Sequence record: NC_054926.1
From: Escherichia phage vB_EcoM_OE5505
DNA: 64,000 nucleotides
Reading direction: 5' to 3' (one strand)
Every line of letters begins with the position of its first letter. Position 1 is the stretch's first letter. Below the pieces are notes generated by a model, which saw only the letters and a program-made list of their open reading frames with translations, had not been told where the DNA came from and ran no database searches. The position numbers were made by a program, and so were the translations under genes. Below are positions 4,088 to 45,777 of this stretch, piece after piece.

Positions 4088-4333
4088 TTATTTACCTAGT
4101 TTACTTATTATAGCTTCTGCAGCAGCTTTTAGCTTAGATGCAGTGTTAATACGATTTTTAATTTCAGTATACGCATCGCCAAGAACATCAAGGCTATCAG
4201 AATAAACACTTACACTATTGCGTTCGCTATTTGAAATAGAACCTTTAGTTTTGCGGTCAAAATCGGTGTACACGTCTTGAAGATCGCGGGCTGCCTTCTT
4301 TGCATCATCCAATGCATCAAGAGCTTTATTCAA
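4088..4333 (-). CDS. Internal-protein-like ORF, probable C-terminal part of a frameshifted IP gene
   Basis: 81 aa ORF with no ATG (only TTG start); contiguous with 4330-4650 in a different frame. Confidence 0.5.
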   Translation of the reverse strand: MNKALDALDDAKKAARDLQDVYTDFDRKTKGSISNSERNSVSVYSDSLDVLGDAYTEIKNRINTASKLKAAAEAIISKLGK

Positions 4334-4650
4334 AGCATTAACGTATTTTTAGTGTCGAACATATTCTTAGAAATTTTAACAGGTGCGCGTTCAGGAGTAG
4401 CTAACACAGATTTAGGAACCTGAGCGCCAGATGCCAATTTCTTAGAAATTTTGAAAAATGCTTTATTGAATTTATTTTCTTGACTCATTGTAAAAGAACT
4501 ATTATCGATGTTGTACATTTCAATAGCTTTAGCTTTCCACTTAAGAAAATCGCCGCGGTCTTTTGGGTCCAATTGGAAGAATACTTTAGTAAGATCTGCT
4601 TCAGATGGTAATTTTGCTGCTTCGGTTAAAAATTCGGCATAGGTTTTCAT
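4330..4650 (-). CDS. Capsid-targeted internal protein (IP-like), N-terminal part
   Basis: Starts MKTYAEFLTEA, matching the T4 internal-protein capsid targeting sequence (MKTYQEFIAE-type); Ala/Lys-rich. Confidence 0.7.
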   Translation of the reverse strand: MKTYAEFLTEAAKLPSEADLTKVFFQLDPKDRGDFLKWKAKAIEMYNIDNSSFTMSQENKFNKAFFKISKKLASGAQVPKSVLATPERAPVKISKNMFDTKNTLML

Positions 4651-4740
4651 TTAAAATCCTTGAAATAATTTATCGGTTGGTTATTAATTATTTATTACTT
4701 TGTTACTATCCGTAACAGCGTTATCCGAGTGATTCAAACT

Positions 4741-4768
4741 AAAAAGCCCCAACCTTTCGGTCGGGGCT
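4741..4768 (-). terminator. Rho-independent terminator (copy 1 of duplicated element)
   Basis: Minus-strand AGCCCCGACC-GAAA-GGTTGGGGCT followed by TTTTT; downstream of ORF ending 4776. Confidence 0.65.
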
Positions 4769-4775
4769 AAGAATG

Positions 4776-5210
4776 TCATTTGATTTGTTTAGCAGACCAA
4801 ATGCGGTCTTTAATAATTTTTTGGATGTCTTCAACATACTCAAGAGAGTGAACATGTGGATTATCTTTGAAACTATAAGCACGGGCTAACTTTTGGCCTT
4901 CGGTTTTGATTACTAAAAGCTCTTTAAGGATAGCTTCATATTTAGCGATAATTCCTTTAACGATATTTTTTTCTTGTGCCGCTTTAGGATCTGCTTTAGG
5001 AGCAGGTTTACCCGAAGCCTTTGCAAAAGCAGCGCCAGTAGCAACTAAACTTTTCCAGGCCATACTAACTGCATTTCCCGTAAATCCTTCCGCTTTCATG
5101 TCGCGTGCAAACTGGAATCGCGATTCATCAGAAGCATCTTTATAGGAATAATTTACCCGCGGCAATGGCAGCTTTTGCAACAGCTTGAATTTCGGTGCTA
5201 GATGCTTCAT
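4776..5210 (-). CDS. Internal-protein-like protein, C-terminal part (frame-shifted relative to its CTS leader)
   Basis: 144 aa ORF; Ala/Lys-rich; N-terminal 22 codons overlap CTS-leader ORF in another frame. Confidence 0.6.
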   Translation of the reverse strand: MKHLAPKFKLLQKLPLPRVNYSYKDASDESRFQFARDMKAEGFTGNAVSMAWKSLVATGAAFAKASGKPAPKADPKAAQEKNIVKGIIAKYEAILKELLVIKTEGQKLARAYSFKDNPHVHSLEYVEDIQKIIKDRIWSAKQIK

Positions 5211-5250
5211 TTAACACCGCTTCATTTAAAAATTGAGTATATGATTTCAT
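5140..5250 (-). CDS. IP capsid-targeting leader ORF (MKSYTQFLNEA...), 36 codons then stop
   Basis: ATG at 5248-5250 preceded by AGGAAATAAG RBS and late promoter; CTS-like N-terminus; stops at 5140. Confidence 0.45.
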   Translation of the reverse strand: MKSYTQFLNEAVLNEASSTEIQAVAKAAIAAGKLFL

Positions 5251-5288
5251 CTTATTTCCTGTTTTAATTTGTAGATTTAATATACTAA

Positions 5289-5296
5289 TATTTATA
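5289..5296 (-). promoter_or_regulatory. T4-type late promoter box TATAAATA
   Basis: TATAAATA on minus strand about 40 nt upstream of CTS-leader ATG at 5250. Confidence 0.55.
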
Positions 5297-5298
5297 CC

Positions 5299-5326
5299 AA
5301 AAAGCCCCAACCTTTCGGTCGGGGCT
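5299..5326 (-). terminator. Rho-independent terminator (copy 2, identical to 4741-4768)
   Basis: Identical hairpin plus T-run; lies between the stable-RNA region and the IP late promoter. Confidence 0.6.
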
Positions 5327-5329
5327 AAG

Positions 5330-5633
5330 CCTTGCGGCAACCTTGTCGGGGTTCCACCTGCTAAGGCAAGTGTTTGTACGAAACGCCGGGATTCGAACCC
5401 GGTTATTAAGTAGTTGACGCTACTCAATATTTTTAAAAGGCCATATCTCGACCATATCCGAACGTTCCGTCAAAAACGCTACTCGGCTTACGGCAAAGAT
5501 ATTTCCTCGAATCGATAATTCGGTGCGCCGTTTCTGCTGTGATAGTAAAGAGCCAGAACACAGTAAAACTGTGGGAGGAAACTATACTCCAGGGAACATC
5601 AGTCCGACGACTTACCGGTAGCGACCCGGTTTC
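5330..5633 (-). ncRNA. Candidate stable small RNA(s) at the distal end of the tRNA cluster
   Basis: No ORF; tRNA-like T-arm CCGGG-TTCGAAT-CCCGG at 5386-5402 but no complete cloverleaf; position matches where T4 has stable RNA species 1/2. Confidence 0.3.
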
Positions 5634-5984
5634 TTAATATTCTTTTAAAGAATCAATATATTCACGGCGTTTACGCCACAAATCAATTGCTTCATACGCG
5701 GATTCAGCATTTCGAATTAGCCGGCATTTATGTAAAGACTTATGATTTTGATATTGTGTAGATAACGGAATTGTATCTAAAAGGTCTTTACGATCAAAAT
5801 ATTCGTAACCATCTAAACCAAATGAACGATTTTTGAGAAATTGCCAATGACCATATTCGTTTTCGACATAAACATAATCTGCATGCTGATAAAGCAAATT
5901 AATTACACGTTCAGAAATAACAGTATCATTATGATTAAAATAGAATGTTAAATCATGAACTACTAAATAAACATTACCTTTCAT
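5634..5984 (-). CDS. Hypothetical protein within tRNA cluster
   Basis: 116 aa ORF between tRNA-Arg and the RNA region, same strand. Confidence 0.6.
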   Translation of the reverse strand: MKGNVYLVVHDLTFYFNHNDTVISERVINLLYQHADYVYVENEYGHWQFLKNRSFGLDGYEYFDRKDLLDTIPLSTQYQNHKSLHKCRLIRNAESAYEAIDLWRKRREYIDSLKEY

Positions 5985-6531: not shown

Positions 6532-7017
6532 TTATTTTATGTAATATTTATTTAAAAACTTTCTAGCTTGAGTATGGCTAACATTTATAGCGTTTGCATA
6601 ATTTTTAATAAAACCTCGTTCATCCATATTAAAATTTTCTAATATTTTTAATCGTCTAATTATCTCATCTTGGCTTAAGGTACTTGCATTATTTTTAGAA
6701 ATTTTTTCTAAAGACTGCACTGAGTGTTTTCGACCATTAAAATTAAAATTTTTAGGTTTTGGAGGAAATCTATCATTTAGTCTCGCATCTTTTGTATTTT
6801 GATTATTAGTTGCGCAATATATGTTATTTAATGAGTATGGTCCTTTATCACCAAAACGACACATACAGTATTCATGACCCTTTCTTCCACGCTTATCATA
6901 ATTTCCTGTTGATTTCCACCAATTTAACCACTCATCAAAAGTTAAATTCCATTCAATGTTTCTACGTATAGCAGAATTCCGCTGAGAAATATATTTTGCA
7001 TAATCTTCTTTCATCAC
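6532..7017 (-). CDS. Homing-endonuclease-like protein (degenerate HNH-like N-terminus, C-terminal HTH)
   Basis: 161 aa; Cys/His motif GHEYCMCRF...LNNIYCATNNQN; C-terminal ...NVSHTQARKFLNKYY resembles the HTH tail of the adjacent HNH ORF. Confidence 0.6.
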   Translation of the reverse strand: MMKEDYAKYISQRNSAIRRNIEWNLTFDEWLNWWKSTGNYDKRGRKGHEYCMCRFGDKGPYSLNNIYCATNNQNTKDARLNDRFPPKPKNFNFNGRKHSVQSLEKISKNNASTLSQDEIIRRLKILENFNMDERGFIKNYANAINVSHTQARKFLNKYYIK

Positions 7018-9060: not shown

Positions 9061-9294
9061 TTATTTTTTACGAAAAATTGATTTATTTTCTGCTGCCCAT
9101 TTTTCAATAACTGCAGCAGGACCAGTAACAACAATTTTATCACCGTAATCTTCTGCGGCGAGTTGACCGAAATTATCTAATGCATCACGAAGAACTCCAT
9201 GAGGCATTTCACCCATTTTATCTTTCTTGCCAGTGTAAATAAACTCAACTTTTACATCAGCAGTTTCAGCAATAAATTCTTGGTAAGTTTTCAT
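9061..9294 (-). CDS. Capsid-targeted internal protein (IPI-like)
   Basis: Starts MKTYQEFIAE (canonical T4 IP capsid targeting sequence) at second ATG; 77 aa. Confidence 0.8.
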   Translation of the reverse strand: MKTYQEFIAETADVKVEFIYTGKKDKMGEMPHGVLRDALDNFGQLAAEDYGDKIVVTGPAAVIEKWAAENKSIFRKK

Positions 9295-44640: not shown

Positions 44641-45777
44641 TTATGGATAGGTATAGATGATACCAGTTTCTAAAGCAGTTTTATGAATGATGTATCCATT
44701 GCGTGATTCTTGAACATCAACTTCTGGATAGTCTTTCATCATCTTCTGAAGAGTGTAACGATGCAGGTAGTATTTACTGTCTGGATCTTCAGTTTTCCAA
44801 TCTTTACCTTCTTCGGTCATTTTTTGGATTTCATCCATAACCCACCAACCGCACCAGATATAAGCTGAAGTACGATGTGGAAGAGGATGAACATAAGGCA
44901 ATTCACCTTCTGGTTCCGGAGCAACTTTATCAGTTACCTGAACTTGGCCTGTTGCTTTAACTGTTTTACTATCATAGTCGGTTGCTGTAACGACAGCAGT
45001 AACTTCAATAGTTTGACTTCCAATAGATGAGGTGTCAATGGTGTATACGTTAGTTGACCCTTCTACAGGAGAAGAATCTTTCTTCCATGAATAAGTAATT
45101 TATGCTGCTTCAGGTGCTCCAGTAACATTAGCCGTAAATGTAGCCGAAGCATCTTGCTGAACGTTAATAGAAGGAGGAGTCAATGTAACCTGTGGATTCA
45201 TTGTCTTCTTATTAACTGTCAATGATACTTCATTAGAAGTAACTTCCTTTTCATTGTAATTTTCTGCAGTTACTTGCGCTACACATTTAATTCTTTTTAC
45301 TCCACTTGTAGTTGGAGTATAGTTAAATGTAGAGTTAGTTTCTCCACCAATTTGAGAATCATCTACATACCACTTATATGTAGCAGACGCTCCATCAGGT
45401 TGAGAAGCTAAGGCAGCAGTAAATTGAACTGGAGTTCCGATTACTCCTTCCGAAGGACTATCAGGAGTTACTGTTATTGTAGTAGTCTGTGTCTTATTTT
45501 GAACTGTGATAGTTGTCGTAGTTTCTGCTGTTTCAGGTTCAGCTTCAGATTCTGGAACTGTATTTGTTGCAACCACCTTAATAGTCTTTTGACCTGCAGG
45601 TCCTTTTAGTACATAGCTAAAAGTTGCTTCAGCTCCATCCTGTGGAACATTATCTACACTCCAAGCATAGGTAATAGTTCCACCTTCAGTTTGACCACTG
45701 GGTGCAGCAGTAAACTGCTTGGTTTCATCAATAACTCCTGTTGGGGTTTTAGGAGTTATATCAACTGTAAAAGTCAT
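44641..45777 (-). pseudogene. hoc: hoc (highly immunogenic outer capsid protein) with in-frame premature ochre stop at 45100-45102
   Basis: 225 codons of Ig-like domains, TAA, then 152 further in-frame codons ending ...IIHKTALETGIIYTYP. Confidence 0.85.

What the first reader, a model, noticed from the sequence alone, without database searches (positions are those of the whole stretch)
4776..5250. Second IP-like gene: capsid-targeting leader ORF out of frame with its body
A late promoter (TATAAATA, 5289-5296), an RBS and an ATG at 5250 open an ORF MKSYTQFLNEAVLNEASSTEIQAVAKAAIAAGKLFL that stops after 36 codons at 5140. The 144-aa ORF 4776-5210 overlaps it in the +1 frame and continues as an Ala/Lys-rich protein. 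Removing one base in the run GGTAAATTATTCC would join leader and body. The ORF-track entry 5140-5427 is an artefact that runs upstream through the terminator at 5299-5326. With the hoc stop, this makes three dispensable virion-protein genes in the window that look disrupted by point lesions.
Basis: seen in the sequence. Interest (0 to 1): 0.5.

Follow-up and report, generated by a model that had tools for sequence, protein, structure and literature searches.

The report
Frameshifted internal-protein-like gene in T4-like phage
A small late gene of a T4-like coliphage, whose product carries the signal that loads proteins into the phage head, is broken by one extra base seen in no other sequence searched; this is an ordinary knock-out (or a sequencing slip) of a dispensable accessory gene, not a new mechanism.

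Summary
On the minus strand a late promoter (TATAAATA, 5296-5289), an AGGAA ribosome-binding site and an ATG at 5250 open a 36-codon ORF (stop 5142-5140). The 144-aa ORF 4776-5210 lies in the +1 frame. Exact protein look-up identifies the window as Escherichia phage vB_EcoM_OE5505 (MK373785). Every fetched relative that carries the wild-type site has one uninterrupted 474-nt gene (157 aa). The window differs from the commonest allele by a single inserted T (AAATATT to AAATTATT, 5151/5150) after codon 33, inside the invariant AGKYSYKD motif. The mutant allele was found in no other phage record, viral contig, metagenome contig or bacterial genome. Nothing supports programmed frameshifting. The intact protein is basic and helical, and shares only the 10-residue capsid-targeting leader with T4 IPI, IPII and IPIII. 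It sits in a promoter-gene-terminator cassette inserted after the rnaC terminator. Intact alleles are under strong purifying selection (dN/dS about 0.05), yet other phages carry independent truncations or lack the cassette. The neighbouring leader-bearing gene (-1 in an A6 run) and hoc (nonsense codon) are also broken. A real loss-of-function mutation is more likely than a consensus error, but the reads are needed to settle it. Interest is low.

The parts
5377..5515 (-). Homolog of T4 rnaC (species 1 RNA). It is the upstream neighbour, and the artefactual ORF 5140-5427 starts inside it.
   Evidence: 99.3% identical over 139 nt to T4 rnaC. The rnaD homolog lies at 5634-5522 (79%).
5303..5326 (-). 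Intrinsic terminator after rnaC (AGCCCCGACCGAAAGGTTGGGGCT followed by a T run). It is the upstream copy of the 40-nt direct repeat 5290-5329 that bounds the cassette.
   Evidence: Terminator scan, repeat family D1, and conservation in T4.
5289..5296 (-). T4-type late promoter TATAAATA, immediately after the terminator T run and 39 nt upstream of the ATG.
   Evidence: The same site is annotated as a predicted late promoter in the Yersinia phage fPS-65 record.
5256..5260 (-). Shine-Dalgarno sequence AGGAA, 5 nt before the ATG.
   Evidence: Read directly from the sequence. A ribosome-binding site is annotated at the same place in phage U115.
5140..5250 (-). Truncated reading frame of 36 codons plus stop. 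It holds the capsid-targeting leader MKSYTQFLNE, two LNE|A cleavage motifs, and the first helix of the N-terminal domain, followed by three out-of-frame codons (LFL).
   Evidence: with the alignment to homologs.
5150..5151 (-). The lesion: TT where relatives have a single T (AAATATT to AAATTATT). This is a +1 insertion after codon 33 (Lys), inside the invariant motif AGKYSYKD.
   Evidence: The mutant allele is absent from 207 matching phage records and from three large collections.
4776..5150 (-). Out-of-frame body of the gene (codons 34-157 of the intact protein, plus stop). It is 100% identical in nucleotides to the intact allele of DalCa, U115 and PYps5T. The annotated 144-aa ORF 4776-5210 is this body plus 20 spurious codons from an internal ATG that has no recognisable Shine-Dalgarno sequence.
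   Evidence: The 144-aa ORF is QBQ79463.1 / YP_010072423.1 and occurs on one contig only.
4745..4768 (-). Downstream terminator with a hairpin identical to 5303-5326. It is the downstream copy of the 40-nt direct repeat (4732-4771).
   Evidence: Contigs L009 and L011 lack the gene exactly between the repeats and keep a single copy.
4088..4650 (-). Neighbouring second leader-bearing gene (187 aa when intact). In the window it is split into 106-aa and 81-aa ORFs by loss of one A from an A6 run (plus-strand T run at 4346-4350).

Best explanation
Window 5250-4776 (minus strand) is one late-transcribed gene for a T4-type internal-protein-like product of 157 aa. The product has an N-terminal capsid-targeting leader (MKSYTQFLNE) followed by Leu-x-Glu sites of the kind cut by the prohead protease. 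The mature part is a basic (pI about 9.5), Ala/Lys-rich, all-helical two-domain protein. By analogy with T4 Ip1-3 it would be loaded into the prohead core, trimmed, packaged with the DNA and injected, probably to counter a host defence. In phage vB_EcoM_OE5505 the gene is knocked out by a private single-T insertion after codon 33. Translation from the proper start ends after 36 codons. The body has lost its leader and its ribosome-binding site, so no functional protein is expected to reach the head. Shown here: the lesion, its uniqueness, the intact state in relatives, purifying selection on intact alleles, and the dispensability of the gene. Inferred: packaging, cleavage and injection; the anti-defence role; and that the insertion is a real mutation rather than a consensus error. 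I rate a real mutation at about 2:1.
For: Intact 474-nt/157-aa CDS in relatives. The window differs from it by one inserted T and nothing else. No record carries the mutant allele: 0 of 207 matching phage records, and 0 hits in viral, metagenome and genome collections, against 2+2 hits for the wild-type 29-mer. The exact 144-aa ORF occurs on a single contig, OE5505, whereas the exact intact protein occurs on 43 contigs. Leader motif: 3 copies in the window against 0.02 expected. The only similarity to T4 IPI, IPII and IPIII is the leader. Late promoter and terminators are confirmed. pI 9.5, with 27 Ala and 21 Lys. The AlphaFold model is helical, with residues 1-15 disordered. dN/dS is 0.04-0.07 between divergent intact alleles. 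The frameshift site lies in the invariant AGKYSYKD motif. Dispensability: independent truncations at an A7 run in fPS-65, ph0021, PsgM02F, G28, T4_ev240, SfPhi01 and metagenome contigs, and clean absence of the cassette in L009, L011 and T4. For a real mutation: in the roughly 85% of the window that has close relatives, the only private 1-nt indels are the two in the adjacent leader-bearing genes, and no other gene in that part carries a private 1-nt indel. In addition, hoc carries a substitution-type nonsense codon. Background: T4 Ip1-3 each inhibit a distinct GmrSD type IV restriction enzyme and share only the leader (PMC12373910; PMC3012670).
Against: No reads are available. The source paper sequenced its phages by either PacBio RSII/HGAP3 or MiSeq/SPAdes and does not say which for OE5505, which had 74x coverage. 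PacBio-only consensus typically leaves a few single-base indels, and the neighbour's A6-to-A5 change has that signature. The body has accumulated no second lesion, so the event is either very recent or not real. There is no proteomic or genetic evidence that this family (phrog_2280, 'unknown function') is packaged at all. No fold match suggests a function.
Confidence: 0.62

Rival explanations
1. Consensus or assembly error: the real OE5505 phage has the intact 157-aa gene, and the extra T (together with the missing A in the neighbouring gene) was introduced during sequencing or assembly.
For: The allele is unique to one deposited record. The flanks are 100% identical to many phages. The study used PacBio RSII/HGAP3 for some of its phages, and coverage was only 74x. 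The neighbouring lesion is a homopolymer deletion (A6 to A5), the classic PacBio residual error.
Against: Within the roughly 54 kb of the window that is comparable with close relatives, the only private 1-nt indels are these two, and both fall in about 1 kb of adjacent dispensable genes. For randomly placed errors the chance is about (1038/54600)^2, or 4e-4. The T insertion is not in a long homopolymer. hoc in the same genome carries a nonsense substitution, which is not an indel-type error. Both genes are independently broken in other isolates and assemblies, so real null alleles of them are common.
Confidence: 0.33
2. Programmed +1 ribosomal frameshifting or another recoding event joins leader and body, so a full-length protein is still made.
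For: The geometry allows it: a +1 shift at AAA-U would restore the wild-type reading.
Against: The split arrangement is not conserved: every relative examined at this site has the plain in-frame gene. No known +1 shifty site is present. The codon after AAA is UUA, for which the phage itself encodes a tRNA-Leu(UAA), so no slow codon is expected there. No stimulatory Shine-Dalgarno-like element or adjacent stop is placed as in prfB.
Confidence: 0.02
3. Two separate functional genes: a 36-aa leader peptide and a 144-aa protein started from the ATG at 5210, as the GenBank and RefSeq records annotate it.
For: The 144-aa ORF is annotated as a CDS (QBQ79463.1 / YP_010072423.1).
Against: The first 20 codons of that ORF are an out-of-frame reading of a conserved coding sequence. 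No Shine-Dalgarno sequence precedes 5210. The exact 144-aa product occurs on a single contig, OE5505. Without the leader the product could not be targeted to the head. Purifying selection acts on the fused frame.
Confidence: 0.03

Closest known systems
T4 internal proteins IPI, IPII and IPIII (Ip1-3): capsid-targeted, gp21-processed, injected anti-restriction proteins
   Same: An N-terminal leader of the MKTYQEFIAE type (here MKSYTQFLNE) followed by Leu-x-Glu|Ala. A late promoter. A small basic protein. A non-essential gene in a hyperplastic region next to the tRNA cluster, with only the leader shared between families, as described for Ips (PMC12373910, PMC3012670).
   Different: The body is unrelated to IPI, IPII or IPIII. 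The locus differs: it lies between rnaC and e.8, where T4 has no gene. PHROGs files the family as 'unknown function' rather than internal virion protein. Packaging, cleavage, injection and target are all untested. In this window the gene is a null allele.
The additional ip genes of T-even phages recognised by their leader (Repoila et al. 1994, as cited in PMC12373910)
   Same: Identification rests on the conserved leader, in a polymorphic accessory locus that varies in presence from phage to phage.
   Different: I could not read that paper, so I cannot say whether this family or this locus was among the roughly ten it reported.
PeSL regulatory cassettes that mediate modular shuffling in T4-type phages (Arbiol et al. 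2010, PMC2839356)
   Same: The gene is a self-contained promoter-gene-terminator cassette bounded by 40-nt direct repeats containing a GGGG..CCCC stem-loop. Some contigs lack it exactly between the repeats and keep one repeat copy.
   Different: PeSLs carry early sigma-70-type promoters. Here the promoter is a late TATAAATA, and the repeat is essentially the terminator itself. Recombination between the repeats was not demonstrated.
Ordinary frameshift pseudogenes of accessory genes in deposited phage genomes
   Same: A single private 1-nt indel in a dispensable gene, annotated as two or more short hypothetical proteins.
   Different: Nothing differs materially; this is the category it belongs to.

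Membership tests
T4-type internal (capsid-targeted, injected) proteins | N-terminal capsid-targeting leader resembling MKTYQEFIAE | tested here: met
   MKSYTQFLNE matches. The motif is found 3 times in the window against 0.02 in shuffles. BLASTP similarity to T4 IPII and IPIII is confined to residues 1-13. hhalign to the neighbouring gene aligns the leader only.
T4-type internal (capsid-targeted, injected) proteins | Prohead-protease (gp21) cleavage motif Leu/Ile-x-Glu at the end of the leader | tested here: met
   L8-N9-E10|A11 and L13-N14-E15|A16 are both present. E15 is invariant across the seven full-length family members. This is a sequence-level test only; cleavage itself was not tested.
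T4-type internal (capsid-targeted, injected) proteins | Late transcription together with the head genes | tested here: met
   TATAAATA at 5296-5289, 39 nt upstream of the ATG. The same site is annotated as a late promoter in fPS-65. Expression itself was not measured.
T4-type internal (capsid-targeted, injected) proteins | Physical presence in the mature head and injection with the DNA | not testable with these tools
   I found no virion proteome that lists this family. Mass spectrometry of a phage with the intact gene is needed.
T4-type internal (capsid-targeted, injected) proteins | Dispensable for growth on laboratory hosts | tested here: met
   Viable isolates carry null or truncated alleles (OE5505, fPS-65, ph0021, PsgM02F) or lack the cassette (T4, L009, L011).
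T4 IPII / IPIII / IPI sequence families (phrog_7857, phrog_5341, phrog_4363) | Homology of the mature part | tested here: not met
   There is no similarity beyond the leader. The T4 proteins hit their own PHROGs, whereas this protein hits only phrog_2280. It is therefore not an ipII or ipIII ortholog.
Programmed ribosomal frameshift genes | The split-frame arrangement is conserved among homologs | tested here: not met
   All relatives examined at this site are in frame, and the mutant allele occurs nowhere else.
Programmed ribosomal frameshift genes | A recognised shifty site with a stimulator (slow codon or stop, upstream Shine-Dalgarno-like element, or downstream structure) | tested here: not met
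   The AAA-UUA-UUC context has no known +1 signal. UUA is read by a phage-encoded tRNA-Leu(UAA).
PeSL-type mobile regulatory cassettes | Gene flanked by repeated promoter-plus-stem-loop elements, with presence/absence variation at the repeats | tested here: inconclusive
   Flanking 40-nt repeats (93% identical, identical hairpins) and a clean absence that leaves one copy are seen. However, the promoter is late rather than the early type that defines PeSLs (PMC2839356).

The most novel reading that the evidence does not exclude
The two leader-bearing cassettes may behave as contingency loci. Both genes carry A-runs whose length varies among natural genomes: A5/A6/A7/A10 in the 187-aa gene, and shorter, wild-type A7 and longer versions in the 157-aa gene. 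Independent off-alleles sit on different sequence backgrounds. Frequent slippage might therefore let Tequatrovirus populations switch injected proteins on and off, for instance to escape host defences that sense them, or to make short and long isoforms, since the A7 run lies at the boundary between the two predicted domains. OE5505, with both cassettes and hoc off, would be one extreme of that variation.
Probability: 0.06. Interest if true: 0.6.

Novelty: new member of a known kind. Interest (0 to 1): 0.2.

Why it matters
There are three modest gains. First, an annotation fix for MK373785 / RefSeq: three 'hypothetical proteins' (144, 106 and 81 aa) are fragments of two frameshifted genes. Second, a family present in more than 200 Tequatrovirus genomes and labelled 'unknown function' (phrog_2280) carries the capsid-targeting leader. 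It is therefore a candidate injected anti-defence protein, worth testing against GmrSD-type restriction systems in the way Ip2 and Ip3 were recently assigned. Third, natural null alleles (OE5505 against the near-isogenic locus in D5505 or DalCa) are ready-made material for such tests. Nothing here changes the understanding of frameshifting or of head assembly.

Tried and rejected
Programmed frameshifting was rejected because the arrangement is not conserved and there is no shifty signal.

Orthology to T4 ipII or ipIII was rejected. T4's ipII and ipIII lie on the other side of gene e, and their bodies are unrelated.

Functional coupling of the two cassettes (A lost only when B is lost) was rejected. 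fPS-65, ph0021 and PsgM02F have a truncated A with an intact B.

Paralogy of the two cassettes was rejected. Although both hit phrog_2280 over their full length, hhalign aligns only the 10-residue leader. A possible link through the 177/178-aa variants is not significant (E = 1.3).

The search for a function led nowhere. There was no Pfam or NCBIfam hit. The AlphaFold model (pLDDT 73) gave no significant PDB match (best E = 0.9), and in BFVD it matched only its own family.

Rfam has no family for the upstream RNAs; they were identified by alignment to T4 rnaC and rnaD instead.

I could not find out which sequencing platform was used for OE5505. I could not read Repoila et al. 1994. I found no virion proteome that covers this protein.

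Full report
**What is in the sequence.**

All features lie on the minus strand. Reading 5' to 3', the order is:
- a homolog of T4 rnaD (5634-5522) and of T4 rnaC (5515-5377, 99% identical to T4);
- an intrinsic terminator (5326-5303);
- directly after its T run, TATAAATA (5296-5289);
- AGGAA (5260-5256);
- ATG at 5250.

The frame opened there reads MKSYTQFLNEAVLNEASSTEIQAVAKAAIAAGKLFL and stops at 5142-5140. The 144-aa ORF 4776-5210 is in the +1 frame. A second terminator with an identical hairpin follows at 4768-4745. The ORF-list entry 5140-5427 begins at a TTG inside rnaC and crosses the terminator, so it is an artefact.

**Where the window comes from.**

Exact-sequence look-up of the window's ORFs finds three GenBank proteins:
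- the 144-aa ORF is QBQ79463.1 / YP_010072423.1;
- the 106-aa ORF is QBQ79462.1;
- the 81-aa ORF is QBQ79461.1.

All three belong to Escherichia phage vB_EcoM_OE5505. This phage is MK373785, 168,756 bp, with 9 tRNAs and 74x coverage, isolated from surface water in Braunschweig. The window also has 9 tRNAs. The lesion is therefore in the public record and was not introduced later.

**The lesion.**

Megablast of 4600-5450 gives 401 phage records covering at least 80% of the query. All 30 records listed are 99.9% identical and span 850 bases against the 851-base query. In DalCa, U115, PYps5T and D5505 the region is annotated as one 474-nt CDS of 157 aa.

Alignment shows that the window differs from that allele by a single inserted T and nothing else: AAATATT becomes AAATTATT at window 5151/5150, after codon 33.

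An 80-nt query centred on the lesion matches 207 phage records, none of them perfectly. The mutant 30-mer has no hit in IMG/VR, JGI metagenomes or GTDB genomes. The wild-type 29-mer has two hits in each of the two collections in which it was tried. The exact 144-aa product exists on one contig, whereas the exact intact 157-aa protein exists on 43. The insertion is private to OE5505.

**What the gene is.**

In T4 the interval between rnaC and e.8 is 284 nt and holds no gene. Its first 83 nt (terminator included) match window 5376-5294, and the rest matches 4079-3859. Window 5293-4080 is therefore a 1.2-kb insertion relative to T4. It consists of two cassettes, each with a ribosome-binding site, a leader-bearing ORF and a terminator; the first also has an exact late-promoter consensus.

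The first cassette is bounded by 40-nt direct repeats, 5290-5329 and 4732-4771, which are 93% identical. Two contigs, L009 and L011, lack the gene exactly between the repeats and retain a single copy.

The intact product shares only residues 1-13 with T4 IPII and IPIII. That stretch is the capsid-targeting leader, and two Leu-Asn-Glu|Ala sites of the kind cut by the prohead protease follow it. The leader motif occurs three times in the window: at 9294 (an intact 77-aa protein that hits a PHROG named 'internal virion protein'), at 5250 and at 4650. The expectation in shuffled windows is 0.02.

The protein is basic (pI 9.5, with 27 Ala and 21 Lys). It has no Pfam or NCBIfam hit. It hits only phrog_2280, 'unknown function'. 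Its family is small, 13 clusters, all from T4-like phages of enterobacteria.

An AlphaFold model (pLDDT 73) shows four parts:
- a disordered leader (residues 1-15);
- a four-helix N-terminal domain;
- a Pro/Lys linker;
- a long C-terminal helical hairpin.

The model has no significant structural neighbour.

According to Silas et al. 2025 (PMC12373910) and Rao & Black 2010 (PMC3012670), T-even internal proteins are a diverse set. They share only this leader, are injected with the DNA, and in T4 each blocks a specific GmrSD type IV restriction enzyme. The gene therefore meets the sequence-level criteria of that class but is not an ortholog of ipI, ipII or ipIII. Its packaging is inferred, not shown.

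**Is the intact gene functional, and is it dispensable?**

Divergent intact alleles differ almost only at synonymous sites (dN/dS 0.04-0.07). The frameshift falls in the invariant motif AGKYSYKD. Where the gene is intact, it is maintained by selection.

The gene is nevertheless often lost or shortened:
- An A7 run at nt 271-277, at the boundary between the two predicted domains, is lengthened in metagenome contigs L007 and L008 and in phages ph0021, PsgM02F, G28 and T4_ev240, giving 97 aa.
- The run is two bases longer in fPS-65, giving 112 aa.
- In SfPhi01 the product (111 aa) changes frame at the same point.

These alleles are documented. Those alleles keep the leader and the N-terminal domain. 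The OE5505 lesion does not, and is a complete null.

**Consequence in OE5505.**

Translation from the authentic start yields a 36-residue peptide, which would be 21-26 residues after leader removal. The body frame has no Shine-Dalgarno sequence before the ATG at 5210 or before the next in-frame Met. Even if it were made, it would lack the leader. Restoring the frame would need a +1 shift at AAA-U. There is no known signal for that, and the next codon, UUA, is read by a phage-encoded tRNA-Leu(UAA). The arrangement is also not conserved. I therefore reject programmed recoding.

**Real mutation or error?**

The source paper used either PacBio RSII/HGAP3 or MiSeq/SPAdes and does not say which for this phage. 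A PacBio-only consensus at 74x could leave a few indels.

Three observations argue against error. First, a k-mer comparison with three close relatives covers 85% of the window and finds 31 isolated private point differences. The length-21 runs are substitutions; the only private 1-nt indels are this +T and the -A in the A6 run of the adjacent leader-bearing gene, and one further difference is a 3-nt in-frame deletion. Two random errors would both land in that 1 kb with probability of about 4e-4, whereas real frameshifts can only survive in dispensable genes. Second, hoc in the same window has an in-frame nonsense codon (GAPEAA* against GAPEEAQ in relatives), which is a substitution. Third, independent null alleles of both cassette genes exist in other isolates and assemblies.

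I put a real mutation at roughly two to one over an artefact. Only the reads or an amplicon can decide.

**Comparison with the known, and verdict.**

This gene works like, and by sequence criteria belongs with, the leader-bearing internal proteins of T-even phages. It is a previously unlabelled family in a locus that T4 lacks, and here it is a pseudogene. The flanking repeats resemble the PeSL shuffling cassettes of Arbiol et al. 2010 (PMC2839356), but with a late promoter.

The finding is ordinary: a frameshifted accessory gene. Its practical value lies in annotation and as a lead for anti-restriction screening. Interest is 0.2.

The only less ordinary reading is that the A-runs of the two cassettes act as on/off switches. 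It rests on a handful of alleles, and I rate it at about 6%.

Noticed in passing
window 4088-4650 (minus); A-run at plus-strand 4346-4350: The neighbouring leader-bearing gene (187 aa when intact) is split into 106 + 81 aa because its A6 run is A5 here. In other assemblies the same run is A7 (L007, L009-L014, on at least two sequence backgrounds) or A10 (L008). The 40 best-matching records in the phage collection all have A6. The tract is either hypervariable or error-prone.
   Followed up: partly
window 45100-45102 (minus), within hoc 44641-45777: hoc has an in-frame nonsense codon at codon 226 (GAPEAA* against GAPEEAQ in D5505, U115 and PYps5T). The remaining 150 or so codons stay in frame. 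This is a substitution, not an indel.
   Followed up: partly
window 5290-5329 and 4732-4771; loci L009 and L011: 40-nt direct repeats (identical terminator hairpins) bracket the 157-aa gene. L009 and L011 lack the gene exactly between them and keep one copy. Relative to T4, the whole 1.2-kb two-cassette block (5293-4080) is inserted just after the rnaC terminator, and the late promoter starts within the terminator tail (GGGGCTTTTTGGTATAAATA).
   Followed up: yes
gene positions 271-277 of the 157-aa gene (window about 4974-4980); loci L007, L008, L023-L025: An A7 run at the boundary between the two predicted domains is a hotspot for independent changes (one or two bases longer, or shorter), giving 93-112-aa products that keep the leader and the N-terminal domain. 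These could be short isoforms rather than nulls.
   Followed up: partly
window 6532-7017 (minus): A 161-aa ORF sits inside the tRNA cluster between tRNA-Met and tRNA-Ser, where D5505 and U115 have tRNA-Thr. The window has 9 tRNAs; D5505 and U115 have more in the same cluster, including tRNA-Thr and tRNA-Gln. PYps5T has a similar ORF at this place. It is probably a homing-endonuclease-type insertion, but I did not test that.
   Followed up: no
window 5377-5515 and 5522-5634 (minus): These are homologs of the T4 small stable RNAs rnaC (99% identical) and rnaD (79%). Rfam has no family for them, so an Rfam scan leaves this stretch blank.
   Followed up: yes
proteins P0049 and P0050 (Yersinia phage fHe-Yen9-01, Klebsiella phage KP01): These 177-178-aa relatives have the N-terminal domain of the 157-aa family joined to an unrelated, longer C-terminal part. 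This suggests domain shuffling at the Pro/Lys linker. Their weak resemblance to the neighbouring 187-aa gene is not significant (E = 1.3).
   Followed up: partly
window 49630: A private 3-nt in-frame deletion (TTAATATTTGCC to TTAATTGCC) relative to PYps5T, D5505 and U115. I did not identify the gene.
   Followed up: no
window 9294 (minus), 77-aa ORF: This is the third leader-bearing gene of the window (MKTYQEFIAETADV...). It lies at the classical ipI locus, is intact, and hits phrog_8111 'internal virion protein'. Of the three leader-bearing genes in the window, only the two in the rnaC-e.8 insertion are broken.
   Followed up: partly
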